Origin: Trypanosoma brucei
Taxonomy: Eukaryota
Direction: 5' to 3'
Assembly (NCBI GenBank): GCA_000002445.1
Contig: CH464491.1
Coordinates: 2,368,001-2,432,000, forward strand
Length of the DNA: 64,000 bases
Shown: in pieces, positions 41,577 to 58,454 of the stretch
Layout: the number at the start of each line of letters is the position of its first letter
Position numbering within the stretch: the first letter of the stretch is position 1
The notes under the pieces: model-generated
The model's input: the letters and a program-made list of their open reading frames with translations, nothing else
Told to the model about the DNA's origin: nothing
Database searches by the model: none
Translations under genes and position numbers: made by a program

Positions 41577-44228
41577 TTGGCGGTAGCCTCCTTAGTAGGG
41601 TGGGCGTATCAGACCATACGAGATCCACACACACACACACACAGAGAGAGAGAGACAGGGGGTGGTTGCCTTTTCGAAAAAGGGTCTGAGTTGCAAGGTT
41701 TTTTCTCCTTATATTATTTTACTTCACTTTTCATTTCACTCTCTTTCTGCCTAATGAGGATTCCACAGGGAGCAATGAAAGGGTTCCGGTGTGCTCCAAA
41801 TGTACGGTTGGTGGTAGCGCCATCGTGTAGTGCGATTGTTTCGGCACTTCGGTGCCTCACACAGTCTCCCCATCTTTGGTGTTCTCGCTGTTCAACTGGG
41901 CTTAAGGGTGACAAGAGCAAATTCCCAGATGCATCTACAGCACTGATACGAAACATCGGGATAGTTGCACACATCGATGCCGGAAAGACAACAACCACTG
42001 AACGTATGCTTTTTTACGCCGGAGCTGTGAAACGTGTGGGTGATGTGGATAGTGGTACCACCACAATGGATTTTATGAAAGAGGAGATGGACCGTGGAAT
42101 AACCATTCAGTCAGCGGCTGTGTCTTTTCAGTGGCGTGGTCACAGCATCCATCTTATTGACACCCCTGGTCATGTGGACTTTACAGTGGAAGTGGAGCGA
42201 GCCATGCGTGTTGTGGATGGTGTGGTTGCTCTTTTCGATGCGTCCGCTGGTGTTCAGGCCCAGAGTTATACGGTTCTTCGGCAGAGTAAGAAGTTTGGTG
42301 TACCTGTCATAGCTTTCTTGAACAAGATGGACAAGTACAACGCTGATTTTACAAAGTGCGTCAACTCGATTCGAAAAAAGTTGGAAATGGAACCTCTGTT
42401 ACTTCAGCTTCCGCTGAGTCGGGAGGATGGAAGCTTTGACGGGGTAGTTGATGTTGTGGAGCTGAAGAGCTATCGGTTTAGTGGTGACCACGGCTCAAAC
42501 GTCATCGTCGGTGATCTACGAGCGCATCGGAGCGAACCACCTCACGTTGTTGAAGCGGCCCGCGACGCCCGGCACGCCCTCCTCTCCACGTTAACCAGCG
42601 TAGACGACTCACTCGCAGACGCGGTTATCGCAGCGCTTGACGAAACTGGCGGTGACGAACAAAGAGCGGAGGACGCCATACCATGTGATGTACTGCGTGC
42701 GGCCATACGGAGGCAGACACTCCGGCAGAACAACTCACCCCGTCCGGTAATCCCCGTGCTATGTGGTGCATCGCGGCGTGACCAGGGGGTGCAGCCGGTT
42801 CTTGATGCTATCACATATTACTTACCTTCTCCGCAAGATCGTGTGCTCTACGGCTACACGAAGGATGGGGAATTGGTGCAACTGCCACCGGCAACAACCG
42901 CACCGTACGCTCCGTTCTTCGCACTCGCGTTCAAAGTTATCCACACAATGGGGCCCAAAGGTCAGCGGCAACCTTTAGTTTTTTTTCGTGTTTACAGTGG
43001 CCGAATAACAGCGCGAACGACACTTGTGAATAACAGCTCCAACAGTCACGAGAATATCGAAAAGCTTTATGTCATGCACGCAGATCATCAGGTTGAGGTT
43101 CCTCATCTCGCCGCCGGGCACATTGGTGCTGCTTTCATGCGGAACACCAAAACCGGGGCAACACTCTATCGTGAACCGCAACACGCTCAATCTGTAGTTG
43201 CAGGCTGTGGTAAGGAGGTTTTTACGCTTGAAGGTATTGATGCCCCATCACCAGTTATCTCCTTTTCTATTGAGGCCGCATCCAAGCACCAAATTTCCCT
43301 CCTGGAGGAGACACTGCAAGAGCTTAGCTTCGAGGACCCGAGTTTGCGGGTCAGCAGGAACAATTTCGGGCAAATAGTTATCAGTGGTATGGGTGAACTT
43401 CACCTGGAAATTGTTATGTCCAGATTGGAGCATTCGTACGGCCTGAAGTGCCGTCTGCTCCGTGCTATTATCGAATATCGGGAGGTAGTGCGCGAGCCGG
43501 TTGAGCTCAAGAATGTTATTGTAACAAATAACGAAGTTCCATACATTGAGTGCTCACTTAGGTTGCAGCCACTATTAGATGATGAGGGTGTCTGTGGCCC
43601 CAGTGAAGTGTGCTCATTCATTGTGGACGAAGCATTTGCAGGAAGTTTTTTATCATCCTCCGCGAACGAGGGGGGCGGTGACCGACGCCGCCGCATGGAT
43701 GACTGTCGGCGCAATGCTGTGGAAGAGCTGCGACTGATAACTGAGGTATTTAACAAAGCCTTGAGTGAATGCTTCCTCCTGGGGCCACTTGCCGGCCTCC
43801 CGCTTCACGGCGTCCGAGTGGTGTTGACGGGGTTCAGGAGGGTGGCTGCAACACAACTAACAGATCGGCCGCTTGCACAGGCCGCGCGTTCACTTTTACT
43901 TCAGCTCCTTCAGGCGGCACCGAAGACGACTTTGGCTGCGCTTGAACCTATGATGGAGGTGGAGGTGCACCTATCTGAACCCACGTACATTGGCGAGGTA
44001 GTGAGCTCCTTGAATGAGCGCAAGGCGGTTACCGTGGATATCCAGGAGGACGGAAAATCGGTAAGTGCAATCTTACCAATGCGGAACATCGTTCGTTATA
44101 CGATGGAACTGCGGAAGGCTGTGAAGGGACACGCCAACCTTTACGTCCGTTTGCATCATTACCGTACTATTGAGGACAAGGCTGTCCTTTCGAGGATCAT
44201 GAAGAACTTAGGTATATACGACAGTTAA
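41577..44228 (+). CDS. Elongation factor G-family translational GTPase, probably mitochondrial (EF-G2/RRF2mt-like)
   Basis: G1 AHIDAGKTT, G2 region RGITIQS, G3 DTPGHVDF, G4 NKMD. EF-G domain II-V-like sequence extends to ~880 aa. The first ~55 codons of the ORF cross a (CA)n(GA)n microsatellite. The real start is more likely Met 41754 or 41775 (MKGFRCAPNVRLVVAPS..., presequence-like). Confidence 0.8.
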   Translation: MAVASLVGWAYQTIRDPHTHTHRERETGGGCLFEKGSELQGFFSLYYFTSLFISLSFCLMRIPQGAMKGFRCAPNVRLVVAPSCSAIVSALRCLTQSPHLWCSRCSTGLKGDKSKFPDASTALIRNIGIVAHIDAGKTTTTERMLFYAGAVKRVGDVDSGTTTMDFMKEEMDRGITIQSAAVSFQWRGHSIHLIDTPGHVDFTVEVERAMRVVDGVVALFDASAGVQAQSYTVLRQSKKFGVPVIAFLNKMDKYNADFTKCVNSIRKKLEMEPLLLQLPLSREDGSFDGVVDVVELKSYRFSGDHGSNVIVGDLRAHRSEPPHVVEAARDARHALLSTLTSVDDSLADAVIAALDETGGDEQRAEDAIPCDVLRAAIRRQTLRQNNSPRPVIPVLCGASRRDQGVQPVLDAITYYLPSPQDRVLYGYTKDGELVQLPPATTAPYAPFFALAFKVIHTMGPKGQRQPLVFFRVYSGRITARTTLVNNSSNSHENIEKLYVMHADHQVEVPHLAAGHIGAAFMRNTKTGATLYREPQHAQSVVAGCGKEVFTLEGIDAPSPVISFSIEAASKHQISLLEETLQELSFEDPSLRVSRNNFGQIVISGMGELHLEIVMSRLEHSYGLKCRLLRAIIEYREVVREPVELKNVIVTNNEVPYIECSLRLQPLLDDEGVCGPSEVCSFIVDEAFAGSFLSSSANEGGGDRRRRMDDCRRNAVEELRLITEVFNKALSECFLLGPLAGLPLHGVRVVLTGFRRVAATQLTDRPLAQAARSLLLQLLQAAPKTTLAALEPMMEVEVHLSEPTYIGEVVSSLNERKAVTVDIQEDGKSVSAILPMRNIVRYTMELRKAVKGHANLYVRLHHYRTIEDKAVLSRIMKNLGIYDS
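41626..41656. repeat. (CA)n(GA)n dinucleotide microsatellite
   Basis: cacacacacacacacagagagagagagaca, read directly from the sequence. Confidence 0.9.
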
Positions 44229-45366: not shown

Positions 45367-46551
45367 GTGGGTAAAATGCTTGGAGCGAACCTTGGGATTA
45401 ACTTTCACACTGATGACGATCATGGTGATCATGGTGATCACGAGGGCCATGAGGGGCACGACATGGGGGGTTGCGCTCCAGCCGCAGGGTCGTACTCGAT
45501 GGGGCTTCACATTGCAGCCATTTTTATTCTCCTGATCGCGTCATTCCTTGGGACAGTTCTTCCCATTGCCGGGAACTATGTGCCACGATTCAAGCTGCCG
45601 CCGTTTCTTATTGTTGTTTCGAAGTGTATTTCCACAGGTGTTGTTATGTCAGTTGCCGTGTTAACACTGCTCAATCACAGCTTACACAGCTTCATGGAGA
45701 AGTGTATCCCACACGGGCTGAGTATGGAAGTGTACAGCGCTTTCGGCTTGCTGTTTATGCTGATCTCGGCTTTACTGATGCATTCATTCGACTCTGCCAT
45801 GGACCTCCTTCTTGAGGGTTGGGCGGTTCGTAAGGAAGAGGAGAAATTAGCCGACGGCGCACCGCAAGTGGCTGATAGTGTGCCGACGGCGGCGGCTCTT
45901 CCACCAACTCAATGCGGAATGAAGCGTTGCACGGCTCAACCAGGAGTATCATGTGAAACTAACGGCTGCTGCCAATCATCTCCGGGACCTGCGTACGGTG
46001 CTACCGGGTGCTGTGGAAGCCGTGGTGAAGCCGCTGCGCTGCTTACCGGTGCGCGGCGTGTTATGGCCCTAGCCTTAATGGAATTCGGTTTGGTGGTGCA
46101 CAGTATTTTTCTCGGTCTTTCCGTAGGTATTGCATCCGACTCGCGCACCAAAGTGCTGCTTGTGGCTCTTTCCTTCCATCAATTTTTTGAAGGCCTGGCT
46201 TTAGGGGCGCGGTTGGCGGAGGCGTCGCTGAAAGCCAAGTTGGAGTTATTTTTGGCCATCCTCTTTTCCATTTCTGTTCCTGTTGGTACGGCTATCGGTG
46301 CCGTTACCATGAGGGATGGCGGCAAAAGCATTACCGGCTCCAGTTACGTCACTATGAGCGCCATTGTCAATGCCATTGGTGCTGGTATTCTGCTTTACAT
46401 CGGTTTTGTCCTGCTTCTCGTTGATTTCCCAACGGATCTGCGCATATACGCGGGTGTCGGGACGCCGAATCGCTTTGTGAGACGCATTGCAATGTTTGTG
46501 GCCCTTTGGGTTGGCTTCGGTGTGATGGCGCTGCTGTCCAAGTGGCACTAG
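45367..46551 (+). CDS. ZIP-family (Zrt/Irt-like) divalent metal transporter, diverged paralogue with Cys-rich cytosolic loop
   Basis: 394 aa. Eight-TM ZIP layout with signature HSIFLGLSVG (TM4) and HQFFEGLALGARL (TM5). N-terminal His/Asp tract (HTDDDHGDHGDHEGHEGHD). The TM3-TM4 loop has CGMKRCTAQPGVSCETNGCCQSSPGPAYGATGCCGS. About 55-60% identical to the downstream array copies. Confidence 0.85.
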   Translation: MGKMLGANLGINFHTDDDHGDHGDHEGHEGHDMGGCAPAAGSYSMGLHIAAIFILLIASFLGTVLPIAGNYVPRFKLPPFLIVVSKCISTGVVMSVAVLTLLNHSLHSFMEKCIPHGLSMEVYSAFGLLFMLISALLMHSFDSAMDLLLEGWAVRKEEEKLADGAPQVADSVPTAAALPPTQCGMKRCTAQPGVSCETNGCCQSSPGPAYGATGCCGSRGEAAALLTGARRVMALALMEFGLVVHSIFLGLSVGIASDSRTKVLLVALSFHQFFEGLALGARLAEASLKAKLELFLAILFSISVPVGTAIGAVTMRDGGKSITGSSYVTMSAIVNAIGAGILLYIGFVLLLVDFPTDLRIYAGVGTPNRFVRRIAMFVALWVGFGVMALLSKWH

Positions 46552-48337
46552 GTAACGTAACTTTTTATTTACATTAATTTTTTTTCTTCACTCCCCCTAA
46601 CTTTGAGGAGTTGAATATGTTCGCACGTGGGTTAACACGTAACAAATAGTATCGCACGGAAAATGAACTCTTTACCGCGTGAGAGGCGTGTCGTGCTGAA
46701 GCGGACGCATCAGAGAAGAGGAGTAAATAAGCGAGGGATTGAGGGATGTTATGCTCACACGCTGTGTTCTGAGAGGTGGGGGAGAAGGTACTGAATTGGC
46801 ACTAAAATAGCGACGATGCGAAACAAGTAAGAAAATGAATAAGCAAAAGTTTTATGGGCAACGATTTTGAGAAAAAAAAATCAATTGCACAAATAGGCGG
46901 TAACCTCTTTATAGCTCTATCTTTTGAAACCCTATTCGCTAGTTTAGCGTTGCGGGGAAGCCGTCGTACTGATCCTAATCTCCTCACTTCCCTTCCTTCC
47001 CCTTCTATTTGTTTTTATTTACAAAATGATGGAAAGCGGGATGATTTGTTGTTCCTGGTGTGTATTCCTTTTTATTACTTATAATGATATGTTCATCATT
47101 GCTGTTATTAATTCGTTTTTGGTGTCTTATGCTATTTTTACATTTAGGGACTCTCATTTTATTTTTATTTTTTTCGAAGGTGTGTGAGTAACAACACATA
47201 CACAACTCGAGGGACTGAAGCATATCGGCGGGTATTGTATCAAGAAAAATTTTAAATTATTAACAAGCACAACACATCAGTGATGGGTCAAATGCAACGA
47301 AATCAGCGTGAAGGGTGAAATAAATAAATGAATCAAGACCTGAAGAAAACGAAATAGAAAGAGAACAGAAAAGGCAACGAATAAAATGGTGGAATGGAGA
47401 GTGAAAGTAACTTTTACAGAAAGGGAGAAGGGGAAAAGAAGAGATTAATAAAATAGGAAAATGTCGGAGGGAATCGAAGTGGCAGCACCTGAAAGAGACA
47501 GTTTAATATTAGCAGGGAAATCATTACTCATCCAATTCGCAACTCATATTCACGTGGTGAAGTGAGGCCGCGGCTTTGTTGCTATTTCTCTTACTCTTTG
47601 TGTACGTGTGTGTTTATTTTCTACGGCGTCGTTACCGGGGTTAATATCCAAAAGAAGGACTTAGTTTAACGTCATTCTAACAGATAAGTGTAATATTTGG
47701 GAGGAGACATTCTCGTATGTATTTTTGTTTTCCCCCCTTTTTGGCGTTATTTGGTGTCCGCTTGTTGGAGATTTATGTTCCTCATACATTTTTTTTTTTC
47801 AAAAAAAGCCTCAACTTGATAAATGCTCGTCCACGTGTGCCCTCCTTTGCCTTGCCTTATTTTTAACATATCTTTTTCAGTTATTCTTTGAGGTAATCTT
47901 CACAAAGTGGCACAGCAACAAAAAAAGATATATATGTATATATATCTAGCAACTGCATGATAATATTTGACATTGAAAGGTTTCAACCATCCTCAAGAGT
48001 ATATCTTCATACTTTTCCTTCACCCTTAATAAAAATCTCTCACATCCCGCTCCCCCCCGTTCCAAGGAAGAAAAAATTACACAAACACAGACACATTTCT
48101 TCACACAGCACCTACAGTCAAATAATAACAGAGCGGGGAGCTTCTAAGCAAAAGGTCCGACCAAGAAACAACCACAAAAAAAAAGGATTAAGAAATCGAA
48201 AAAATTGAAAAACATATAACTATACGACCAATTTAAAAAAAATAATAATAATTAAATTATGTAATAATAATAAAAATATATAACAACGATTCAGAAATAA
48301 AGAAAAAATATATAAAAAGCAACCAAAAACCAGGCGG

Positions 48338-48525
48338 TCGCCAGTGCTGTGTGTGGTGGGATGCTGCTGTACCTTGCTTTCTGCCTCATGTTGAGTGACT
48401 TCCCATCGGATATGCAGAAACATGCTGGGAAGGATAAGGTAAGGCGTTTCTTCAGATGCTTTGGGATGTTTGCGGCTCTTTGGCTTGGCGCTGCGTTGAT
48501 GGCCGTGTTAGGAAAATGGGTCTAA
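48338..48525 (+). pseudogene. Truncated 3' fragment (~62 codons) of a ZIP transporter gene marking the start of the tandem array
   Basis: caggcggtcgccagtgctgtgtgtggtgggatgctgctgtacc...tgggtctaa is identical to the 3' end of the copy at 49613..50797. It is fused upstream to unrelated AT-rich sequence and followed by the same 1087-bp intergenic unit. Confidence 0.8.
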
Positions 48526-49440
48526 GCACCCACTGTTCATGTGTGTGCCAATGGATTGCCCACTTCATTTTCTGTTTTCCTCGTACTCTTTTTCCAGCCC
48601 CCTTTTTCAGTTGTAATGATGCTCCCGCACGTGTGTTGCGTGGTCCGGTGAGCCATTGTGCCCTACCTGTTGCATGCGTTAGAGTTGTTCTTGAGGTGTG
48701 CTTGTGCATGTACATACATATATGTATATGTATATATACGTGTGTGTGTTTCTTGAGCTAGCGCCGAGTTGGGAGTGAGAGGAGTTGTGCTCTTCGTGTG
48801 TGCGTAGGTTTGAGCGTATGCGGACTGAGTGTCGGATGTTTAGCGGTGCGAAGCATAAGCAATTGCTCACGTGTTTGTATGCGTGTGTGTTGCGTACATG
48901 TTTCCAAACATCTACCCTGCCTTCAGGAGGGACCTGCACGAGTACATACATGAGCATATGTGCTGTGTTTACGCTTGTCCTTGATTTAGTTACAATATAC
49001 AACTGCGTACATCTACATTTTACTACTTTATGTTCGTTTGTTCATTTATTAGTATTTTTAAATAGCAATGCCCACCATCCTCGTAGTTACTCTACCGTGC
49101 TGGTGCGGGGGACGAAGCTGCAGACGCGTGGTGTACGAATATATGCATGCGTATGGATGTGTGTGCATGTGTTTCTGTGTGCGTCAATGCGCGTTTGAGT
49201 GTCTGCCTGCGCGTATATTTAAATAGTGATTTAGCGGATATCTGACTGTAGAGGGTACGACGGACGGGCTTATTTTCCACATGAGACTATTTCTTCCCCT
49301 GCTTTCTTTCTGTGCTGGTGCTGGTGCTGGTGTGTGTCTGTGTGTGCGCAGTTGTGGATGGGATGGTGGCAAATGTATCGCATTGCTGCTGTTCCCATCC
49401 CTTAGTGCCCCATTGTTTCTGCACGCTCTCGCTAAGCATT

Positions 49441-49520
49441 CCTTCTTACCCTTTTTGCCCATTGATTCTTTTTCTATGTTTGCCGTCCCTTTTTCACCTT
49501 TTTCTTTTTGGTGTGTGTAG
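49441..49520 (+). promoter_or_regulatory. Polypyrimidine tract plus downstream AG: candidate spliced-leader trans-splicing acceptor region for ZIP copy 1 (repeated before each array copy)
   Basis: ccttcttaccctttttgcccattgattctttttctatgtttgccgtccctttttcacctttttctttttgg then gtgtgtgtAG, ~95 nt upstream of the ATG. The same block recurs at 51713-51792, 53776-53860 and 55813-55897. Function inferred from kinetoplastid mRNA-processing rules, not shown by the sequence. Confidence 0.4.
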
Positions 49521-49612
49521 ATACCATAAAGTGACAGTCAGGTTTCGGTTGGTGCTGCCTTAGCTAATCTCAGCAAAAACACACTTCCTCTTTTTGTGAT
49601 ACAGTCAGAGCG

Positions 49613-50797
49613 ATGGCTAACGTTAATAACGAGACCACCGAATGTGGTGCATTGCTTTCGAATATCACTTCCCTACAGACGACGCTAACGTCTATGGGAT
49701 GCCAAGTGCCCGCCTTGCATCATCACACGCATGACCACGGCCACCATCACCATCATCATCATCATGACGATCACACCCACGGAGCGGACGACCACGAAGG
49801 TCACGGGCACAGTCACGGCGGGTGCGAAAGTGGTCATGGCACGTATTCCATTGGACTGCATGTTGTGGCGATCTTTGTTGTGTTGATTGCGTCGTTTCTG
49901 GGCACGCTGATACCGATAATCGGAAAGTACGTGCCGGCACTGCGGCTTCCTCCGTTTGTGTTTGTCCTTGGCAAGTGCATTGCAGCTGGAGTGCTACTGT
50001 CAGTGTCGACTATCCACATGATTAATGAAGCTGTAGCGCAGCTACAGGAAGATTGTGTTCCGGAGTCGTTTCGCGAATCATATGAGGCATATGCATTTCT
50101 GTTTGCTGTGGCTGGAGCGTTGCTGTTGCACATGGTGGACGTCATTGTTGACGCACGTGTGACAAACAAGAGCGATTCCAGCACCAACAAACCTGAGGGT
50201 CAACCCGATGCCGAAGAAGCTCAAGCGGCCCCGGCTGCTCTTGATGCGTACGATGGTCATCACTGCCACTACGCTGTCGGCATGCCACAGTCGAGGACCA
50301 GACGCCTCGTCTCTGCAATGTTTATGGAGTTTGCGGTAACTGTGCACAGTGTGTTCATTGGGCTGGCAGTCGGTATCGCAAGGGATGCGGAGACTAAAAC
50401 TTTACTTGTGGCTCTGGCATTTCATCAGATGTTGGAGGGCCTTGCTCTGGGCGCGCGTCTGGTGGATGCAGAGTTGAGCTTGAAGCTTGAAATGCTGTTT
50501 GCACTACTCTTCTCTGTCTCTGCGCCCCTGGGCACCGCAATTGCCGTTGGCACGATTGCGATTTGGAATGTGTCGATGGTAGGAACCGCGTTCGTGATTA
50601 CACAGGCGGTCGCCAGTGCTGTGTGTGGTGGGATGCTGCTGTACCTTGCTTTCTGCCTCATGTTGAGTGACTTCCCATCGGATATGCAGAAACATGCTGG
50701 GAAGGATAAGGTAAGGCGTTTCTTCAGATGCTTTGGGATGTTTGCGGCTCTTTGGCTTGGCGCTGCGTTGATGGCCGTGTTAGGAAAATGGGTCTAA
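49613..50797 (+). CDS. ZIP-family metal transporter, array copy 1 (type A, long His tract)
   Basis: 394 aa. N-terminal HHHTHDHGHHHHHHHHDDHTHGADDHEGHGHSHGG. TM4 HSVFIGLAVG, TM5 HQMLEGLALGARL. TM3-TM4 loop with DGHHCHY. Confidence 0.9.
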   Translation: MANVNNETTECGALLSNITSLQTTLTSMGCQVPALHHHTHDHGHHHHHHHHDDHTHGADDHEGHGHSHGGCESGHGTYSIGLHVVAIFVVLIASFLGTLIPIIGKYVPALRLPPFVFVLGKCIAAGVLLSVSTIHMINEAVAQLQEDCVPESFRESYEAYAFLFAVAGALLLHMVDVIVDARVTNKSDSSTNKPEGQPDAEEAQAAPAALDAYDGHHCHYAVGMPQSRTRRLVSAMFMEFAVTVHSVFIGLAVGIARDAETKTLLVALAFHQMLEGLALGARLVDAELSLKLEMLFALLFSVSAPLGTAIAVGTIAIWNVSMVGTAFVITQAVASAVCGGMLLYLAFCLMLSDFPSDMQKHAGKDKVRRFFRCFGMFAALWLGAALMAVLGKWV

Positions 50798-51884
50798 GCA
50801 CCCACTGTTCATGTGTGTGCCAATGGATTGCCCACTTCATTTTCTGTTTTCCTCGTACTCTTTTTCCAGCCCCCTTTTTCAGTTGTAATGATGCTCCCGC
50901 ACGTGTGTTGCGTGGTCCGGTGAGCCATTGTGCCCTACCTGTTGCATGCGTTAGAGTTGTTCTTGAGGTGTGCTTGTGCATGTACATACATATATGTATA
51001 TGTATATATACGTGTGTGTGTTTCTTGAGCTAGCGCCGAGTTGGGAGTGAGAGGAGTTGTGCTCTTCGTGTGTGCGTAGGTTTGAGCGTATGCGGACTGA
51101 GTGTCGGATGTTTAGCGGTGCGAAGCATAAGCAATTGCTCACGTGTTTGTATGCGTGTGTGTTGCGTACATGTTTCCAAACATCTACCCTGCCTTCAGGA
51201 GGGACCTGCACGAGTACATACATGAGCATATGTGCTGTGTTTACGCTTGTCCTTGATTTAGTTACAATATACAACTGCGTACATCTACATTTTACTACTT
51301 TATGTTCGTTTGTTCATTTATTAGTATTTTTAAATAGCAATGCCCACCATCCTCGTAGTTACTCTACCGTGCTGGTGCGGGGGACGAAGCTGCAGACGCG
51401 TGGTGTACGAATATATGCATGCGTATGGATGTGTGTGCATGTGTTTCTGTGTGCGTCAATGCGCGTTTGAGTGTCTGCCTGCGCGTATATTTAAATAGTG
51501 ATTTAGCGGATATCTGACTGTAGAGGGTACGACGGACGGGCTTATTTTCCACATGAGACTATTTCTTCCCCTGCTTTCTTTCTGTGCTGGTGCTGGTGCT
51601 GGTGTGTGTCTGTGTGTGCGCAGTTGTGGATGGGATGGTGGCAAATGTATCGCATTGCTGCTGTTCCCATCCCTTAGTGCCCCATTGTTTCTGCACGCTC
51701 TCGCTAAGCATTCCTTCTTACCCTTTTTGCCCATTGATTCTTTTTCTATGTTTGTCGTCCCTTTTTCACCTTTTTCTTTTTGGTGTGTGTAGATACCATA
51801 AAGTGACAGTCAGGTTTCGGTTGGTGCTGCCTTAGCTAATCTCAGCAAAAACACACTTCCTCTTTTTGTGATACAGTCAGAGCG

Positions 51885-53069
51885 ATGGCTAACGTTAATA
51901 ACGAGACCACCGAATGTGGTGCATTGCTTTCGAATATCACTTCCCTACAGACGACGCTAACGTCTATGGGATGCCAAGTGCCCGCCTTGCATCATCACAC
52001 GCATGACCACGGCCACCATCACCATCATCATCATCATGACGATCACACCCACGGAGCGGACGACCACGAAGGTCACGGGCACAGTCACGGCGGGTGTGAA
52101 AGTGGTCATGGCACGTATTCCATTGGACTGCATGTTGTGGCGATCTTTGTTGTGTTGATTGCGTCGTTTCTGGGCACGCTGATACCGATAATCGGAAAGT
52201 ACGTGCCGGCACTGCGGCTTCCTCCGTTTGTGTTTGTCCTTGGCAAGTGCATTGCAGCTGGAGTGCTACTGTCAGTGTCGACTATCCACATGATTAATGA
52301 AGCTGTAGCGCAGCTACAGGAAGATTGTGTTCCGGAGTCGTTTCGCGAATCATATGAGGCATATGCATTTCTGTTTGCTGTGGCTGGAGCGTTGCTGTTG
52401 CACATGGTGGACGTCATTGTTGACGCACGTGTGACAAACAAGAGCGATTCCAGCACCAACAAACCTGAGGGTCAACCCGATGCCGAAGAAGCTCAAGCGG
52501 CCCCGGCCGCTCTTGATGCGTACGATGGTCATCACTGCCACTACGCTGTCGGCATGCCACAGTCGAGGACCAGACGCCTCGTCTCTGCAATGTTTATGGA
52601 GTTTGCGGTAACTGTGCACAGTGTGTTCATTGGGCTGGCAGTCGGTATCGCAAGGGATGCGGAGACCAAAACTTTACTTGTGGCTCTGGTTTTTCATCAG
52701 ATGTTGGAGGGCCTTGCTCTGGGCGCGCGTCTGGTGGATGCAGAGTTGAGCTTGAAGCTTGAAATGCTGTTTGCACTACTCTTCTCTGTCTCTGCGCCCC
52801 TGGGCACCGCAATTGCCGTTGGCACGATTGCGATTTGGAATGTGTCGATGGTAGGAACCGCGTTCGTGATTACACAGGCGGTCACCAGTGCTGTGTGTGG
52901 TGGGATGCTGCTGTACCTTGCTTTCTGCCTCATGTTGAGTGACTTCCCATCGGATATGCAGAAACATGCTGGGAAGGATAAGGTAAGGCGTTTCTTCAGA
53001 TGCTTTGGGATGTTTGCGGCTCTTTGGTTTGGCGCTGCGTTAATGGCCTTTATCGGAAAGTGGATCTAA
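51885..53069 (+). CDS. ZIP-family metal transporter, array copy 2 (type A 5' part, type-B-like 3' end)
   Basis: 394 aa, >98% identical to copy 1. C-terminus reads WFGAALMAFIGKWI like copies 3/4, not WLGAALMAVLGKWV as in copy 1. Confidence 0.9.
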   Translation: MANVNNETTECGALLSNITSLQTTLTSMGCQVPALHHHTHDHGHHHHHHHHDDHTHGADDHEGHGHSHGGCESGHGTYSIGLHVVAIFVVLIASFLGTLIPIIGKYVPALRLPPFVFVLGKCIAAGVLLSVSTIHMINEAVAQLQEDCVPESFRESYEAYAFLFAVAGALLLHMVDVIVDARVTNKSDSSTNKPEGQPDAEEAQAAPAALDAYDGHHCHYAVGMPQSRTRRLVSAMFMEFAVTVHSVFIGLAVGIARDAETKTLLVALVFHQMLEGLALGARLVDAELSLKLEMLFALLFSVSAPLGTAIAVGTIAIWNVSMVGTAFVITQAVTSAVCGGMLLYLAFCLMLSDFPSDMQKHAGKDKVRRFFRCFGMFAALWFGAALMAFIGKWI

Positions 53070-53954
53070 GCACCCACTGTTCATGTGTGTGCCAATGGAT
53101 TGCCCACTTCATTTTCTGTTTTCCTCGTACTCTTTTTCCAGCCCCCTTTTTCAGTTGTAATGATGCTCCCGCACGTGTGTTGCGTGGTCCGGTGAGCCAT
53201 TGTGCCCTACCTGTTGCATGCGTTAGAGTTGTTCTTGAGGTGTGCTTGTGCATGTACATACATATATGTATATGTATATATACGTGTGTGTGCTTAGTAC
53301 ATGTTTCCAAACATCTACCCTGCCTTCAGGAGGGACCCGCACGAGTACATACATGAGCAAATGTGCTCCGTTTTTTTGTTTTATAACATACAACTGTACT
53401 ACAAAGTTCAACTCAGTATACCTAAATTTCAGTGTTTTTTTTATTGTCAACGTTTTTTTCTCGTTTTAGCAATGCCCACCATCCTCGTTGTTACTCTACC
53501 GTGCTGGTGCGGGGGACGAAGCTGCAGACGCGTGGTGTACGAATATATGCATGCGTATGGATGTGTGTGCATGTGTTTCTGTGTGCGTCAATGCGCGTTT
53601 GAGTGTCTGCCTGCGCGTATATTTAAATAGTGATTTAGCGGATATCTGACTGTAGAGGGTACGACGGACGGGCTTATTTTTTACATCATATTTGTAGTCG
53701 TTTTTGTCGTTTTTCAATTATTTTTTGTTTTTTAAAAATATTCTTACAACATTTGTGTCTATGTACGCTCTCGCTAAGCATTCCTTCTTACCCTTTTTGC
53801 CCATTGATTCTTTTTCTATGTTTGCCGTCCCTTTTTCACCTTTTTCTTTTTGGTGTGTGTAGATACCATAAAGTGACAGTCAGGTTTCGGTTGGTGCTGC
53901 CTTAGCTAATCTCAGCAAAAACACACTTCCTCTTTTTGTGATACAGTCAGAGCG

Positions 53955-55106
53955 ATGGCTAACGTTAATAACGAGACCACCGAATGTGGTGCATTGCTTT
54001 CGAATATCACTTCCCTACAGACGACGCTAACGTCTATGGGATGCCAAGTGCCCGTCTTGCATCATCATCATCGTGACAATCACACCCACGGAGTGGTCGA
54101 CGATGGAATTGATGGAGACACTCACGGCGGGTGTGAAAGTGGTCATGGCACGTATTCCATTGGACTGCATGTTGTGGCGATCTTTGTTGTGTTGATTGCG
54201 TCGTTTCTGGGCACGCTGATACCGATAATCGGAAAGTACGTGCCGGCACTGCGGCTTCCTCCGTTTGCGCTTGTCCTTGGCAAGTGCATTGCAGCTGGAG
54301 TGCTACTGTCAGTGTCGACTATCCACATGATTAATGAATCTATTTTACAGCTACAGGAAGATTGTGTTCCGGAGTCGTTTCGCGAATCATATGAGGCATA
54401 TGCATTTCTGTTTGCTGTGGCTGGAGCGTTGTTAATGCAGATGGTGGACGTAATTGTGGATAAATATGTGACAAATAAGAGCGATTCCAGCACCAACAAA
54501 CCTGAGGGTCAACCCGATGCCGAAGAAGCTCAAGCGGCCCCGGCTGCTCTTGATGCGTACGATGGTCATCACTGCCACTACGCTGTCGGCATGCCACAGT
54601 CGAGGACTAAACGTCTCGTCGCTGCAATGTTTATGGAGTTTGCGGTAACTGTGCACAGTGTGTTTGTCGGGCTGGCAGTCGGTATCGCAAGGGATGCGGA
54701 GACCAAAACTTTACTTGTGGCTCTGGTTTTTCATCAGATGTTGGAGGGCCTTGCTCTGGGTGCGCGTCTGGTGGATGCAGAGTTGAGCTTGAAGCTTGAA
54801 ATGCTGTTTGCACTACTCTTCTCTGTCTCTGCGCCCCTGGGCACCGCAATTGCCGTTGGCACGATTGCGATTTGGAATGTGTCGATGGTAGGAACCGCGT
54901 TCGTGATTACACAGGCGGTCACCAGTGCTGTGTGTGGTGGGATGCTGCTGTACCTTGCTTTCTGCCTCATGTTGAGTGACTTCCCATCGGATATGCAGAA
55001 ACATGCTGGGAAGGATAAGGTAAGGCGTTTCTTCAGATGCTTTGGGATGTTTGCGGCTCTTTGGTTTGGCGCTGCGTTAATGGCCTTTATCGGAAAGTGG
55101 ATCTAA
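53955..55106 (+). CDS. ZIP-family metal transporter, array copy 3 (type B, short His tract)
   Basis: 383 aa. N-terminal HHHHRDNHTHGVVDDGIDGDTHGG replaces the long His tract. The rest is collinear with copies 1/2. Confidence 0.9.
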   Translation: MANVNNETTECGALLSNITSLQTTLTSMGCQVPVLHHHHRDNHTHGVVDDGIDGDTHGGCESGHGTYSIGLHVVAIFVVLIASFLGTLIPIIGKYVPALRLPPFALVLGKCIAAGVLLSVSTIHMINESILQLQEDCVPESFRESYEAYAFLFAVAGALLMQMVDVIVDKYVTNKSDSSTNKPEGQPDAEEAQAAPAALDAYDGHHCHYAVGMPQSRTKRLVAAMFMEFAVTVHSVFVGLAVGIARDAETKTLLVALVFHQMLEGLALGARLVDAELSLKLEMLFALLFSVSAPLGTAIAVGTIAIWNVSMVGTAFVITQAVTSAVCGGMLLYLAFCLMLSDFPSDMQKHAGKDKVRRFFRCFGMFAALWFGAALMAFIGKWI

Positions 55107-55991
55107 GCACCCACTGTTCATGTGTGTGCCAATGGATTGCCCACTTCATTTTCTGTTTTCCTCGTACTCTTTTTCCAGCCCCCTTTTTCAGTTGTAATGA
55201 TGCTCCCGCACGTGTGTTGCGTGGTCCGGTGAGCCATTGTGCCCTACCTGTTGCATGCGTTAGAGTTGTTCTTGAGGTGTGCTTGTGCATGTACATACAT
55301 ATATGTATATGTATATATACGTGTGTGTGCTTAGTACATGTTTCCAAACATCTACCCTGCCTTCAGGAGGGACCTGCACGAGTACATACATGAGCAAATG
55401 TGCTCCGTTTTTTTGTTTTATAACATACAACTGTACTACAAAGTTCAACTCAGTATACCTAAATTTCAGTGTTTTTTTTATTGTCAACGTTTTTTTCTCG
55501 TTTTAGTAATGCCCACCATCCTCGTTGTTACTCTACCGTGCTGGTGCGGGGGACGAAGCTGCAGACGCGTGGTGTACGAATATATGCATGCGTATGGATG
55601 TGTGTGCATGTGTTTCTGTGTGCGTCAATGCGCGTTTGAGTGTCTGCCTGCGCGTATATTTAAATAGTGATTTAGCGGATATCTGACTGTAGAGGGTACG
55701 ACGGACGGGCTTATTTTTTACATCATATTTGTAGTCGTTTTTGTCGTTTTTCAATTATTTTTTGTTTTTTAAAAATATTCTTACAACATTTGTGTCTATG
55801 TACGCTCTCGCTAAGCATTCCTTCTTACCCTTTTTGCCCATTGATTCTTTTTCTATGTTTGCCGTCCCTTTTTCACCTTTTTCTTTTTGGTGTGTGTAGA
55901 TACCATAAAGTGACAGTCAGGTTTCGGTTGGTGCTGCCTTAGCTAATCTCAGCAAAAACACACTTCCTCTTTTTGTGATACAGTCAGAGCG

Positions 55992-57155
55992 ATGGCTAAC
56001 GTTAATAACGAGACCACCGAATGTGGTGCATTGCTTTCGAATATCACTTCCCTACAGACGACGCTAACGTCTATGGGATGCCAAGTGCCCGCCTTGCATC
56101 ATCATCATCGTGACAATCACACCCACGGAGTGGTCGACGATGGAATTGATGGAGACACTCACGGCGGGTGTGAAAGTGGTCATGGCACGTATTCCATTGG
56201 ACTGCATGTTGTGGCGATCTTTGTTGTGTTGATTGCGTCGTTTCTGGGCACGCTGATACCGATAATCGGAAAGTACGTGCCGGCACTGCGGCTTCCTCCG
56301 TTTGCGCTTGTCCTTGGCAAGTGCATTGCAGCTGGAGTGCTACTGTCAGTGTCGACGATCCACATGATTAATGAATCTATTTTACAGCTACAGGAAGATT
56401 GTGTTCCGGAGTCGTTTCGCGAATCATATGAGGCATATGCATTTCTGTTTGCTGTGGCTGGAGCGTTGCTGTTGCACATGGTGGACGTCCTTTCTGGTTT
56501 TTGTGTTCGTCGGGATGAAATGGTTTATAGTGATACTTCGGCAGTTGTTCCGCATGAGGTTATCGATGCCGAAGAAGCTCAAGCGGCCCCGGCTGCTCTT
56601 GATGCGTACGATGGTCATCACTGCCACTACGCTGTCGGCATGCCACAGTCGAGGACTAAACGTCTTTTTTCTGCAATGTTTATGGAGTTTGCGGTAACTG
56701 TGCACAGTGTGTTTGTCGGGCTGGCAGTCGGTATCGCAAGGGATGCGGAGACCAAAACTTTACTTGTGGCTCTGGTTTTTCATCAGATGTTGGAGGGCCT
56801 TGCTCTGGGCGCGCGTCTGGTGGATGCAGAGTTGAGCTTGAAGCTTGAAATGCTGTTTGCACTACTCTTCTCTGTCTCTGCGCCCCTGGGCACCGCAATT
56901 GCCGTTGGCACGATTGCGATTTGGAATGTGTCGATGGTAGGAACCGCGTTCGTGATTACACAGGCGGTCACCAGTGCTGTGTGTGGTGGGATGCTGCTGT
57001 ACCTTGCTTTCTGCCTCATGTTGAGTGACTTCCCATCGGATATGCAGAAACATGCTGGGAAGGATAAGGTAAGACGTTTCTTCAGATGCTTTGGGATGTT
57101 TGCGGCTCTTTGGCTTGGCGCTGCGTTAATGGCCTTTATTGGAAAATGGATCTAA
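55992..57155 (+). CDS. ZIP-family metal transporter, array copy 4 (type B with replaced TM3-TM4 loop segment)
   Basis: 387 aa. As copy 3, but loop segment VIVDKYVTNKSDSSTNKPEGQPD is replaced by LSGFCVRRDEMVYSDTSAVVPHEVID (77 nt vs 65 nt, in frame). Confidence 0.9.
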   Translation: MANVNNETTECGALLSNITSLQTTLTSMGCQVPALHHHHRDNHTHGVVDDGIDGDTHGGCESGHGTYSIGLHVVAIFVVLIASFLGTLIPIIGKYVPALRLPPFALVLGKCIAAGVLLSVSTIHMINESILQLQEDCVPESFRESYEAYAFLFAVAGALLLHMVDVLSGFCVRRDEMVYSDTSAVVPHEVIDAEEAQAAPAALDAYDGHHCHYAVGMPQSRTKRLFSAMFMEFAVTVHSVFVGLAVGIARDAETKTLLVALVFHQMLEGLALGARLVDAELSLKLEMLFALLFSVSAPLGTAIAVGTIAIWNVSMVGTAFVITQAVTSAVCGGMLLYLAFCLMLSDFPSDMQKHAGKDKVRRFFRCFGMFAALWLGAALMAFIGKWI

Positions 57156-57297
57156 ATCTAAATTGTTTTGTGAATTTGTGTATATTTTAAATTCCTGTTT
57201 TTTTCTTTGTCTTTTTCTTTGTCTTTTTCTATGTTGCTTTTTTTTTTTGTTTTTCTTTTTTGTTTTTTTTTTAATGTTAGGTTTTTTATTGTCCACT

Positions 57298-57639
57298 ATG
57301 TCCCGTGTCCCTATTAGCGAAGAACAGGCACAACAGTTGCTGATGAAGCAACAAGCGCAGGAGGAAAAGCAGGAAGCAATGAGAGAACAGAAAGAAAGTA
57401 TTTTGCGCGCCGTTGTGTCTGCTGAAGGAAGGGAACGCCTGACCCGACTGAGTCAGGTGAAAGCTGATCGTGCAACAGCTGTGGAATCTTATATCATACA
57501 AGCTGTTCGCCAAGGCAAGCTACAACCGCCCGTTTCTGATGAAATGGTGCGGGAAATTCTTGAACAAATGTCTTCTCAGTCAGCGGAATCCAAGAGCAAT
57601 ATTGTGTTTGCCCGGAAACGCATGGATGACGATTGGTGA
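57298..57639 (+). CDS. PDCD5: PDCD5/TFAR19-family protein (programmed cell death protein 5 homologue)
   Basis: Start at Met 57298 inside a longer low-complexity ORF. ILRAVVSAEGRERLTRLSQVKADRATAVESYIIQAVRQGKLQPPVSDEMVREILEQMS matches remembered PDCD5 ([50 protein letters not shown]). About 113 aa. Confidence 0.75.
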   Translation: MSRVPISEEQAQQLLMKQQAQEEKQEAMREQKESILRAVVSAEGRERLTRLSQVKADRATAVESYIIQAVRQGKLQPPVSDEMVREILEQMSSQSAESKSNIVFARKRMDDDW

Positions 57640-58454
57640 TTGGTTGTTTGGTCGTTTGGTTGGTGGCGTACATTTCTGTTTTATTAGGATTTTAATTTTG
57701 TAGTCTTTCTTAAGGTTTGTGTCCCCTATGTCTGGGTTTCATTTTTTTTTTTTACCCGACGAACTGTGCTGATGTCTCATGCTTTTGGGAATTCTTTTAG
57801 GTAATTATTCTGCTGATTTATTAGATAATGTTCCACGTCGTTGTTTCCCTCGTCCCTTACCACTTCTATTCTCTGCATCCCTCCATTGTGTTTCGTGGTT
57901 ATTCACTTATTTGCGTGTTAAGGTGGTAGTAGTTTTTTTTTCGGTTTGTTTTGTGGTTCAGGGTGTTGCCTGCATCCGTGCACTGGTGTGATGTGATTCG
58001 CGTGTGGTTGTGGGCTTGTGGATTGAAGGTGTGACAGAGTGGTGTTTTGCGTCCCGCTGCTTTTTATGTGTCTGCGTTGGACCATGCAGCTCTTTTATTT
58101 CTTGTGGTGGGGGCTGATGTCGGAAGGAAGCTGCCGTTTCTCGTTTCGAACCGGGCTTTGAGAGAGGCCGGGGCGCTGGTGTGGAATGAAGTGTTCTGGT
58201 GTTCTTTGGGACCTGCAAGATACCAAGAGGAGTGCGGCTGTGTTAATTCGCACTTAATTATTACTGTTTCTTAAGCTAGTTTTGTACAGGGTCACTTGCT
58301 GTTGCGTTTAAACGGTATTTGAACTCTCCTTTTCTGATCGTACATATTCATGGGAAGGGGAGGGGCGCTGAGAGAATCGTATTTGAGGTAATAGAAAGTG
58401 GTGAAGTGAAGGAAGCAGGAAAATACAGCGGAAAAACAGAGAGAGCGCTTAATA

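What the first reader, a model, noticed from the sequence alone, without database searches (positions are those of the whole stretch)
45880..46030. Founder ZIP copy carries a Cys-rich instead of His-rich variable loop
In the upstream diverged paralogue the TM3-TM4 loop contains CGMKRCTAQPGVSCETNGCCQSSPGPAYGATGCCGS, with 8 Cys in 36 residues. The array copies have a short DGHHCHY motif in that position. A thiolate-rich loop suggests a preference for softer metals such as Cu(I), Zn or Cd, or redox regulation. This implies functional divergence, not mere redundancy, between the founder and the amplified array.
Basis: partly seen in the sequence, partly recalled or inferred. Interest (0 to 1): 0.5.

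Follow-up and report, generated by a model that had tools for sequence, protein, structure and literature searches.

The report
Cysteine-only sensor loop in trypanosome ZIP3a
One of the metal-import genes of Trypanosoma brucei (TbZIP3a, Tb927.11.8990) has replaced the usual histidine metal-binding motif in its cytoplasmic loop with a cluster of cysteines that has been kept throughout the genus Trypanosoma, which marks it as an old, functionally distinct paralogue and not a spare copy of the neighbouring zinc-transporter array.

Summary
The peptide CGMKRC...GCCGS lies at window 45913-46020, inside the ZIP gene 45376-46551 (+), which is Tb927.11.8990/TbZIP3a. It has 7 Cys in 36 residues, not 8, and no His. 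It sits in the disordered cytosolic TM3-TM4 loop. All four array copies carry GHHCHY at the aligned site.

A core C-x-M-x2-C-x7-C-E-x3-C-C is kept in orthologues from six Trypanosoma species. Four of 7 loop Cys are invariant, against 2 of 47 other loop residues, and every orthologue keeps 6-7 loop Cys. Synteny is conserved in T. cruzi and T. melophagium.

"Founder" is wrong. The gene is an ancient paralogue, monophyletic at 96% bootstrap, sister to the T. cruzi TcIT class and not to the array. Outside Trypanosoma the site reads C-x-G-H-x-H, so the Cys cluster is a genus-level remodelling of an ancestral Cys/His site. The class also lost the TM2 His reported as required for Fe transport in LIT1/IRT1.

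Best explanation (inferred, not shown): a high-affinity thiolate metal sensor or autoregulatory loop. This fits published data that ZIP3a escapes the ZNK1 mRNA control acting on the array. Soft-metal preference remains untested. It is a new variant of a known kind, of moderate interest.

The parts
45376..46551 (+). TbZIP3a (Tb927.11.8990) coding sequence, 391 aa, ZIP-family metal transporter of 'class A'. The ORF tool starts it at GTG 45367; the first ATG is 45376.
   Evidence: ORF. Pfam Zip PF02535, E=3e-42. 99% identical to the T. b. gambiense 'cation transporter', which starts MLGANLG. Named TbZIP3a in PMC13569496. AF2 model has 8 TM helices, pLDDT 82. Foldseek matches only BbZIP structures.
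45913..46020 (+). The Cys cluster, residues 180-215: CGMKRCTAQPGVSCETNGCCQSSPGPAYGATGCCGS. It has 7 Cys and 0 His and lies in the cytosolic TM3-TM4 loop.
45913..45972 (+). Genus-conserved core C180-x-M182-x2-C185-x7-C193-E194-x3-C198-C199.
   Evidence: Invariant in 7 orthologues, except C199 in T. vivax. Cys codons differ synonymously between T. brucei and T. cruzi.
45973..46014 (+). Insertion of about 14 residues (aligned residues Q200-C213) specific to the salivarian species T. brucei and T. vivax. It ends in a second CC pair, C212-C213. The G-C-C here aligns to G-H-H of the array motif GHHCHY.
   Evidence: Alignments.
45856..46017 (+). Unstructured part of the TM3-TM4 loop, residues 161-214.
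   Evidence: AF2 secondary structure and pLDDT. Positive-inside count is K+R 14 inside versus 3 outside.
45664..45666 (+). Thr97 in TM2. This is a class-A-specific replacement of the TM2 His (LIT1 H108 / TcIT H105) that classes B and C and Leishmania keep.
   Evidence: Alignments. The role of the residue is taken from PMC8785980, citing Jacques et al. 2010.
46099..46104 (+). TM4 transport-site motif H242-S243 (HSxxxGxxxG), unchanged relative to the array.
   Evidence: Invariant columns.
46177..46191 (+). TM5 transport-site motif H268-Q269-x-x-E272 (HQxxEG), unchanged relative to the array.
   Evidence: Invariant columns.
49613..57155 (+). TbZIP3 tandem array used for comparison: four copies at 49613-50797, 51885-53069, 53955-55106 and 55992-57155. 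Each has GHHCHY at the site aligned to the distal CC pair.
   Evidence: Identified as Tb927.11.9000-9030 in PMC13569496.

Best explanation
The gene at 45376-46551 is TbZIP3a, a ZIP-family divalent-metal importer. It belongs to an old Trypanosoma-specific paralogue class that I call class A. In this class the conserved metal-binding motif of the cytosolic TM3-TM4 loop, ancestrally C-x-G-H-x-H about 15 residues before TM4, has been rebuilt into a His-free cluster of 5-7 cysteines, with one invariant Met and one invariant Glu. I propose that this disordered loop binds the transported metal through thiolates on the cytosolic side of the exit pathway and acts as a built-in, high-affinity sensor of cytosolic metal. 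Loading it would inhibit transport or mark the protein for removal, as the His-rich loops of BbZIP, IRT1 and hZIP4 do. Because thiolate sites are oxidisable, the sensor could also respond to redox state. What is shown: the ZIP fold and motifs, the loop position and cytosolic orientation, the conservation of the Cys pattern, the replacement of the His motif, the orthology and the synteny. What is inferred: metal binding by the Cys residues, the regulatory consequence, and which metal is sensed.
For: 1. ZIP identity and topology. Pfam Zip. Only BbZIP structures match the AF2 model. The loop lies between TM3 and TM4 and is predicted disordered. K+R is 14 inside versus 3 outside, which places the loop in the cytosol.

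2. Selection on the cysteines. Four of 7 loop Cys are invariant across 7 orthologues, against 2 of 47 non-Cys loop positions (M182 and E194), Fisher p=0.0015. Every orthologue keeps 6-7 loop Cys even where individual positions shift. Cys codons differ synonymously between T. brucei and T. cruzi.

3. Fixed spacing. The C-x4-C-x7-C-x4-C-C spacing, together with an invariant Met and Glu, suggests a defined coordination geometry.

4. The site is homologous to a His motif. G-C-C aligns with G-H-H-C-H in the array, G-C-H-N-H-G in the TcIT class, and C-x-G-H-Q-H-G in Leishmania, Angomonas and other kinetoplastid homologues. Of 131 representative homologues, 96 have HxH within 40 residues of TM4. Of the 11 His-free ones, only the class A representatives carry 5 or more Cys.

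5. Family precedent. Two His residues in the BbZIP loop L(3,4) form a cytosolic egress site and negatively regulate uptake. The IRT1 and hZIP4 His-rich loops sense metal and trigger degradation (PMC10256678; PMC12203963).

6. Published regulation. ZIP3a mRNA is not under the zinc/ZNK1 control that acts on ZIP3. It lacks the GU-repeat 3'-UTR motif and was not a hit in the RIT-seq screen (PMC13569496). This leaves protein-level control as a plausible alternative.

7. Orthology. Class A is monophyletic at 96% bootstrap with a species-like topology. There is a bit-score gap of 536-681 versus 443 or less. Synteny downstream of mitochondrial EF-G holds in T. brucei, T. cruzi and T. melophagium.
Against: There is no direct evidence of metal binding. 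AF2 gives no structure for the loop (pLDDT below 50), and no Pfam or PDB family matches it. In BbZIP the sensing His residues lie just after TM3, whereas here the cluster lies nearer TM4, so the geometry of any fold-back may differ. Only six species carry the motif, so covariation-type evidence is thin. Clustered cytosolic Cys and CC pairs near a TM helix are also classic S-acylation sites. The ZIP3a substrate is unknown, and no localisation or knockout data were found in the searched literature.
Confidence: 0.45

Rival explanations
1. The Cys cluster is an S-palmitoylation (S-acylation) cassette. Several cytosolic cysteines, including CC pairs, are acylated by a DHHC enzyme. This pins the loop to the inner leaflet and directs ZIP3a to a membrane sub-domain (for example flagellar or flagellar-pocket membrane) or stabilises it. 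Metal binding plays no part.
For: The loop is cytosolic and disordered, with 7 Cys including two CC doublets lying 15-35 residues before TM4. The number of Cys (6-7) is kept even where positions shift, as expected if only 'enough acylatable Cys' matters. From general knowledge, multi-Cys strings next to membranes (SNAP-25, CSP) are typical DHHC substrates and trypanosomes use acylation for flagellar targeting.
Against: Four Cys positions and their spacing are strictly invariant, together with a Met and a Glu. Acylation does not require this. The cluster replaces, residue for residue, a His metal-binding motif conserved across the family. Literature searches found no record of the protein in a trypanosome palmitoylome, but those data sets were not really accessible, so this is weak.
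Confidence: 0.17
2. The thiolate-rich loop reflects a change of substrate towards soft metals. ZIP3a would import Cu(I)/Cu(II) or Cd, or preferentially Zn over Fe. The Cys/Met cluster would act as a cytosolic acceptor or relay that strips the metal from the exit and passes it on to trypanothione or chaperones, like the C-terminal Cys/His motifs of CTR1 or the cytosolic Cys pair of MerT.
For: The loop has an all-S ligand set, including an invariant Met in C-x-M-x2-C. Class A also differs in the permeation domain: TM2 His to Thr at the LIT1 H108 / TcIT H105 position, and TM7 D to N and C to G. This is compatible with altered selectivity. A T. cruzi preprint reports no CTR-type copper importer in T. 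cruzi and suggests that a ZIP (TcIT, the sister class) carries Cu (10.1101/2024.04.12.589278).
Against: The TM4 HSxxxG and TM5 HQxxEG transport-site motifs are identical in ZIP3a and the array. In the characterised ZIPs read here (BbZIP; IRT1 and hZIP4 as summarised in PMC10256678 and PMC12203963) the TM3-TM4 loop acts in metal sensing and regulation, and no selectivity role is described for it. The copper data concern TcIT, which has a GCHNHG loop and is the neighbouring paralogue, not the orthologue. There are no uptake data for ZIP3a.
Confidence: 0.15
3. The cluster ligates an iron-sulfur cluster, or acts purely as a redox switch, so that transporter activity reports cellular Fe-S status or trypanothione redox status and not free metal.
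For: Four to five invariant Cys plus a Glu could ligate a [2Fe-2S] or [4Fe-4S] centre. [quoted passage not shown] ZIP3a mRNA rose modestly (about 50%) only in TPEN plus Fe (PMC13569496). The sister class, TcIT, is reported as an iron transporter (PMC8785980).
Against: The spacing matches no known Fe-S motif that I can name, and no family hit was found. There is no precedent in the ZIP family. The loop is predicted to be fully disordered.
Confidence: 0.06
4. The Cys richness is a neutral compositional quirk of a fast-evolving variable loop and has no function.
For: ZIP TM3-TM4 loops are notoriously variable. Even array copy 4 carries a unique patch of about 75 nt in its loop. AF2 finds no structure in the ZIP3a loop.
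Against: The Cys pattern is conserved across the deepest split in the genus, while 45 of 47 other loop positions vary. The chance expectation is about 0.08 per window. Other His-free homologues do not accumulate Cys.
Confidence: 0.03

Closest known systems
TbZIP3 array (Tb927.11.9000-9030) and Leishmania infantum LiZIP3, zinc-regulated ZIP importers
   Same: They share the ZIP fold, the TM4 HSxxxG and TM5 HQxxEG motifs, a His/Asp-rich extracellular N-terminal tail and the same chromosomal cluster (PMC13569496).
   Different: Protein identity is about 42% and there is no DNA-level similarity. The loop motif is GHHCHY or C-x-GHxHG instead of a Cys-only cluster. The TM2 His is present in ZIP3 and is Thr in ZIP3a. 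ZIP3 mRNA is degraded by ZNK1 in zinc-replete cells and ZIP3a mRNA is not. Stage expression also differs.
TcIT (TCDM_06386), the reported T. cruzi ZIP iron transporter, also proposed as a Cu importer
   Same: It is the sister clade of class A, with 100% bootstrap for A+B. It is the adjacent gene in the T. cruzi cluster and is about 47% identical.
   Different: It is not the orthologue. The published cloning primers match the second gene of the cluster. Its loop carries GAGCHNHGE, with one Cys and two His, and it keeps the TM2 His (H105). No class B gene was found in T. brucei or T. vivax.
BbZIP loop L(3,4) zinc sensor (Pang et al. 2023, PMC10256678)
   Same: It is a disordered cytosolic TM3-TM4 loop whose metal-ligand side chains can bind the transported ion at the cytosolic egress and inhibit uptake. 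This is the proposed working analogy.
   Different: In BbZIP the ligands are two His immediately after TM3, plus Asp and Glu from TM3 and TM7. Here they would be 5-7 Cys located nearer TM4, in an 85-residue loop. Sequence identity to BbZIP is about 13%.
Arabidopsis IRT1 and human ZIP4 His-rich regulatory loops
   Same: Both are intrinsically disordered cytosolic loops that bind non-substrate or excess metal directly and trigger phosphorylation, ubiquitination and degradation.
   Different: Their ligands are His (plus Asp) with nanomolar affinity. A thiolate cluster is expected, from general coordination chemistry, to bind Zn, Cd and Cu much more tightly and to be redox-sensitive. No Lys or Ser regulatory sites were examined here.
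Cys-rich cytosolic metal-binding tails of other metal transporters: plant HMA2/HMA4 CC-repeat and CCxxE motifs, CTR1 C-terminal Cys/His, metallothioneins (from memory, a lead and not a test)
   Same: They share CC doublets and Cys plus Glu ligands in disordered cytosolic segments next to a transport exit.
   Different: There is no sequence relationship: no Pfam hit for the loop at E up to 10. The carrier protein family is different.

Membership tests
ZIP (Zrt/Irt-like, SLC39, TC 2.A.5) metal transporters | Significant match to the Pfam Zip profile PF02535 over the whole membrane domain | tested here: met
   E=3.3e-42, 145 bits against a cutoff of 35.1, covering residues 46-390 of the 394-aa ORF.
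ZIP (Zrt/Irt-like, SLC39, TC 2.A.5) metal transporters | Eight TM helices with a long variable cytosolic loop between TM3 and TM4, and N- and C-termini outside | tested here: met
   AF2 predicts 8 helices. Hydropathy agrees. K+R is 14 inside versus 3 outside.
ZIP (Zrt/Irt-like, SLC39, TC 2.A.5) metal transporters | Conserved transport-site motifs: TM4 H-S-x3-G-x3-G and TM5 H-Q-x2-E-G | tested here: met
   H242, S243, G247, G251, H268, Q269, E272 and G273 are invariant in the 14- and 34-sequence alignments.
ZIP (Zrt/Irt-like, SLC39, TC 2.A.5) metal transporters | Fold similarity to the solved ZIP structure (BbZIP) | tested here: met
   The only significant Foldseek PDB hits are BbZIP entries 6pgi, 7z6m and 5tsa, with probability 1.00 and TM-score (target) 0.62-0.69. 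No sequence-level PDB hit was found.
ZIP (Zrt/Irt-like, SLC39, TC 2.A.5) metal transporters | Actual divalent-metal transport activity | not testable with these tools
   The searched literature holds no uptake data for Tb927.11.8990.
ZIP transporters with a His-rich TM3-TM4 sensing loop (IRT1 / hZIP4 / BbZIP type) | HxH or (HX)n motif in the TM3-TM4 loop | tested here: not met
   The loop has 0 His. 96 of 131 representative homologues have HxH within 40 residues of TM4. ZIP3a may therefore work like these loops but is not a member of the His-loop type.
Trypanosoma 'class A' ZIP (orthologues of TbZIP3a) | Monophyly, a species-tree-like topology and conserved gene position | tested here: met
   96% bootstrap in an NJ tree of 317 columns. 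Bit-score gap. It is the first ZIP gene downstream of mitochondrial EF-G in T. brucei, T. cruzi and T. melophagium.
Trypanosoma 'class A' ZIP (orthologues of TbZIP3a) | Loop motif C-x-M-x2-C-x7-C-E-x3-C-(C) | tested here: met
   Present in all 7 sequences from 6 species. Absent from classes B and C and from all non-Trypanosoma homologues inspected.
TcIT / LIT1 / IRT1-type ferrous iron ZIP transporters | TM2 His (IRT1 H96 / LIT1 H108 / TcIT H105), reported as required for Fe transport | tested here: not met
   The aligned residue is Thr97, invariant in class A. Classes B and C and Leishmania have His. The role of the residue is taken from PMC8785980, citing Jacques et al. 2010.
Metallothionein / known Cys-rich metal-binding domains | Match to a curated family profile | tested here: not met
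   Loop peptides from T. brucei, T. cruzi and T. vivax gave no Pfam hit at E up to 10.

The most novel reading that the evidence does not exclude
Class A ZIPs (TbZIP3a and its orthologues) could be the trypanosomes' dedicated route for thiophilic or redox-active metals. No CTR-type copper importer has been found in T. cruzi, according to the preprint read. Alternatively they could be a redox-gated importer. In that reading the His-free Cys7/Met loop forms a metallothionein-like cluster at the cytosolic exit that accepts the metal and hands it to the trypanothione system. Transport would then be coupled to the parasite's unusual thiol redox metabolism. The mechanism would be specific to this genus and has no described counterpart in the ZIP family.
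Probability: 0.1. Interest if true: 0.7.

Novelty: new variant of a known kind. Interest (0 to 1): 0.4.

Why it matters
ZIP transporters are usually thought to sense cytosolic metal through His-rich TM3-TM4 loops. A His-free, all-cysteine version that has been conserved across a whole parasite genus is a natural experiment on what that loop does.

For trypanosome biology, it gives a concrete molecular handle on a question raised in a 2026 paper. [quoted passage not shown] The handle consists of five invariant Cys, one Met and one Glu, together with the TM2 His-to-Thr change.

It also corrects an easy mis-assignment. The characterised T. cruzi 'iron transporter' TcIT is the neighbouring paralogue. 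The Cys-loop class is therefore functionally uncharacterised in any species.

If the loop proves to be a high-affinity or redox-sensitive sensor, it would link metal uptake in the insect-stage parasite to thiol metabolism, which is a validated drug-target area.

Tried and rejected
1. I tested whether the Cys-loop gene's T. cruzi orthologue is the published iron/copper-responsive transporter TcIT. It is not. The TcIT cloning primers match the second gene of the cluster, L001:12272-13381, whose loop is GAGCHNHGE. TcIT's functional data therefore cannot be transferred directly.

2. Searches for a known domain in the loop found nothing. Pfam with three loop peptides at E up to 10 gave no hit. PDB sequence searches with the protein and with a 34-sequence profile gave no hit.

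3. AlphaFold2 gave no structure for the loop (pLDDT below 50). It therefore neither supports nor refutes a metal-dependent fold. I did not run a second AF2 job because the tool returns no coordinates with which to inspect Cys geometry.

4. Literature searches on palmitoylation of this protein were unproductive, both with old-style gene IDs and with palmitoylome terms. The key data sets are not in the searchable library.

5. A literature search for ZIP transporters with Cys-rich intracellular loops returned only His-loop work and reviews. I found no description of this feature, but absence from an open-access subset is weak evidence.

6. The 'founder of the array' reading was rejected on the phylogeny and on the lack of any DNA similarity.

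7. I did not find T. congolense, T. rangeli or T. theileri class A orthologues. I treat this as incomplete annotation or database coverage and not as loss, because T. melophagium, the close relative of T. theileri, has one.

8. A disulfide-knot reading was rejected because the loop is on the cytosolic side.
Full report
**1. What is at the coordinates**

Window 45367-46551 (+) is a 394-codon ORF. Its first ATG is at 45376 and gives a 391-aa protein. This protein is 99% identical to the annotated T. brucei gambiense 'cation transporter', which starts MLGANLG. The exact protein also occurs in assembly GCA_001457755.2; from memory this is a Trypanozoon genome, T. equiperdum.

It matches Pfam Zip PF02535 with E=3e-42. 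A 2026 paper names this gene Tb927.11.8990 = TbZIP3a, 'a diverged paralog' that precedes the TbZIP3 tandem array Tb927.11.9000-9030 (PMC13569496). In the window the array is the four ORFs at 49613, 51885, 53955 and 55992.

The quoted peptide CGMKRCTAQPGVSCETNGCCQSSPGPAYGATGCCGS is encoded at 45913-46020. It contains 7 cysteines, not 8.

**2. Is it in the TM3-TM4 loop, and on which side of the membrane?**

Hydropathy and an AlphaFold2 model (34-sequence alignment, mean pLDDT 82, pTM 0.78) agree on eight helices. TM3 is helix 123-160 and TM4 is helix 215-252. The segment 161-214 is non-helical, with pLDDT below 50 over 179-213. The cluster (residues 180-213) is therefore in the TM3-TM4 loop, just upstream of the TM4 motif H242-S243.

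Lys plus Arg counts are 14 in the predicted inside loops against 3 outside. This matches the accepted ZIP topology, so the loop is cytosolic. The 85-residue loop has 7 Cys and no His.

Foldseek against the PDB finds only BbZIP structures (probability 1.00). Sequence searches of the PDB find nothing.

**3. More than chance?**

At the window's own Cys frequency (2.15% over 25 long ORFs), 7 or more Cys in 34 residues has P of about 7e-6 per position. About 0.08 such stretches are expected in the whole set. This is the densest Cys stretch in the window, denser than the DHHC cysteine-rich domain encoded at 61686-63137.

**4.

Homologue searches recover a sharply separated group of six species. These are T. 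brucei/gambiense, T. vivax, T. melophagium, T. grayi, T. cruzi (with T. c. marinkellei and many strain alleles) and T. conorhini. Profile scores for this group are 536-681 bits, against 443 or less for all other ZIPs.

In all of them the loop carries C-x-M-x2-C-x7-C-E-x3-C-C. Across seven orthologues, 4 of the 7 T. brucei loop Cys are invariant, against 2 of 47 other loop residues (M182 and E194); Fisher p=0.0015. Each orthologue has 6-7 loop Cys, although 2-3 of the positions move.

T. brucei and T. vivax share an insertion of about 14 residues that ends in a second CC pair. Cys codons differ synonymously between T. brucei and T. cruzi, TGC versus TGT at C185 and C198. The condition 'not conserved in orthologues' is therefore not met.

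**5. What the cluster replaced**

In the alignment the distal G-C-C of ZIP3a sits on G-H-H-C-H of the array copies. All four copies carry AYDGHHCHYAVGM. The proximal G-C-C-Q of the stercorarian orthologues sits on G-C-H-N-H-G of the TcIT class.

Outside Trypanosoma the site reads C-x-G-H-Q-H. This holds for Leishmania ZIP3 and LIT1, for Angomonas and for unnamed kinetoplastid-like contigs.

Among 131 representative homologues with a recognisable TM4, 96 have HxH within 40 residues upstream. Eleven are His-free, and only the two class A representatives combine that with 5 or more Cys. The Cys cluster is thus a remodelling of a conserved Cys/His metal-binding site. The His residues were lost, one became Cys, and three Cys were recruited upstream.

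**6. Orthology and the 'founder' idea**

A neighbour-joining tree (317 ungapped columns, 100 bootstraps) gives three Trypanosoma classes:
- Class A, the Cys-loop class, has 96% support and an internal topology that follows the species tree (T. brucei with T. vivax; T. cruzi with T. conorhini; T. grayi with T. melophagium).
- Class B contains TcIT.
- Class C contains the TbZIP3 array and its relatives.

A and B are sisters at 100% support.

Class A is the first ZIP gene downstream of mitochondrial EF-G in T. brucei (EF-G at 41577-44228), in T. cruzi (L001) and in T. melophagium (L005). ZIP3a and the array share no detectable DNA similarity and about 42% protein identity. ZIP3a is therefore an ancient paralogue that predates the radiation of the genus. 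It is not the founder from which the array was amplified.

**7. A correction to an obvious shortcut**

The reported T. cruzi iron transporter TcIT (PMC8785980) has also been proposed as a copper importer (bioRxiv 10.1101/2024.04.12.589278). It might have supplied functional data for the Cys-loop class. Its cloning primers, however, encode MNNVESSDAH... and ...LLGKWA. These match the second gene of the T. cruzi cluster (L001:12272-13381), whose loop is GAGCHNHGE. The Cys-loop gene is L001:10001-11128. The Cys-loop class is therefore uncharacterised in every species I could check.

**8. Other class-specific changes**

Class A has Thr (T97, invariant) where classes B and C and Leishmania have the TM2 His. 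[quoted passage not shown] Class A also has N-A-I-G-G-G in TM7 where the others have D-A-V-C-G-G.

The TM4 and TM5 transport-site motifs are unchanged. Divergence is thus not confined to the loop.

**9. Published context**

- Tb927.11.8990 is maximally expressed in procyclic forms. Array copies peak in stumpy forms or in salivary-gland stages (PMC5879877).
- ZIP3 mRNA rises more than 4-fold on zinc chelation and is degraded through ZNK1 and GU-repeats in its 3'-UTR.
- ZIP3a mRNA changes little (+50% in TPEN plus Fe; less than 2-fold in znk1 nulls). It lacks the motif and was not a hit in the RIT-seq screen. [quoted passage not shown]
- Neither that paper nor my other searches mention the Cys-rich loop.

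**10. Mechanism**

In BbZIP, two His residues of the TM3-TM4 loop close a cytosolic egress site and negatively regulate uptake. The IRT1 and hZIP4 His-rich loops bind excess metal and trigger degradation (PMC10256678; PMC12203963).

By analogy, and given the residue-for-residue replacement of the His motif, I consider it most likely that the ZIP3a loop is a thiolate-based metal sensor or autoregulatory element on the cytosolic face (confidence about 0.45). It would bind more tightly than a His loop and could be redox-sensitive. This would give ZIP3a protein-level feedback in place of the mRNA-level control used by ZIP3. All of this is inference; no binding or transport has been measured.

Rival explanations, with my confidence in each:
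- An S-acylation cassette (0.17).
- An Fe-S or purely redox sensor (0.06).
- Neutral drift (0.03), which the conservation data make very unlikely.

**11. Verdict**

The interpretation of functional divergence is supported by conservation, phylogeny, additional class-specific substitutions and published expression and regulation data. The soft-metal preference remains speculative.

This is a new variant of a known kind: a ZIP transporter whose regulatory loop uses Cys instead of His, conserved across the genus Trypanosoma. Interest is moderate at 0.4. It is not a surprise that overturns anything, but it is a clean, testable handle on an uncharacterised transporter class.

Noticed in passing
window 48331-49612: This stretch is 99.9% identical to 50603-51884, that is, the last 195 nt of a ZIP3 coding sequence plus the whole inter-copy spacer with its GT-repeat tracts. 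The array therefore begins with a 5'-truncated ZIP3 relic (CDS remnant at 48331-48525) upstream of the first intact copy. Much of the 3-kb 'ZIP3a 3' region' is in fact array sequence.
   Followed up: partly
window 45664-45666 (Thr97 of ZIP3a): The whole Cys-loop class has Thr at the TM2 position where classes B and C and Leishmania LIT1/ZIP3 have His (LIT1 H108 / TcIT H105). That His is reported as required for iron transport. Class A also has N-A-I-G-G-G instead of D-A-V-C-G-G in TM7. Divergence therefore extends into the permeation domain.
   Followed up: partly
window 55992-57155 (array copy 4), about 56500-56585: Copy 4 carries a unique patch of about 75-85 nt, including a 12-nt insertion, in the proximal TM3-TM4 loop. 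It encodes LSGFCVRRDEMVYSDTSAVVPHEVI and is found nowhere else in the window. Copies 3 and 4 also lack the long N-terminal His run of copies 1 and 2. The array copies are 92.6-98.8% identical and are mosaics, not uniform repeats.
   Followed up: partly
L001:12272-13381 (T. cruzi CL Brener): The published 'iron transporter' TcIT corresponds to the second ZIP gene of the T. cruzi cluster (class B, loop GAGCHNHGE), as shown by its cloning primers. No class B gene was recovered from T. brucei or T. vivax, which suggests loss in salivarian trypanosomes.
   Followed up: partly
window 50798-51884, 53070-53954, 55107-55991 versus 57156-58454: (GT)n tracts with n of 3 or more occur 6-10 times in each spacer after array copies 1-3 and not at all after copy 4. 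This is consistent with the published GU-repeat ZNK1 element being absent from the last, divergent copy.
   Followed up: partly
window 61686-63137 (+): This ORF encodes a DHHC palmitoyltransferase (Pfam PF01529, E=2e-27), about 15 kb downstream of ZIP3a. The proximity is probably coincidental, but it is worth noting given the palmitoylation rival hypothesis.
   Followed up: no
window 41577-44228, 57139-57639 and 60230-61375 (+): The flanking genes are an EF-G-like GTPase (the synteny anchor shared with T. cruzi and T. melophagium), a PDCD5-like dsDNA-binding-domain protein, and a DnaJ-domain protein with a Cys-rich C-terminus. The X-Pro dipeptidyl-peptidase gene that separates EF-G from the Cys-loop ZIP in T. 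cruzi and T. melophagium is absent from the T. brucei window.
   Followed up: partly
P0093/P0221 (Angomonas deanei), P0098, P0183 (Helicosporidium): Several non-Trypanosoma ZIP homologues have mixed Cys/His loops, for example ECPCGEQKCEAGVQPC...HTGHSHG and HCHEPCHQHCHEHG. Cys use in this loop may be more widespread in protist ZIPs than the 'His-rich loop' textbook picture suggests.
   Followed up: no
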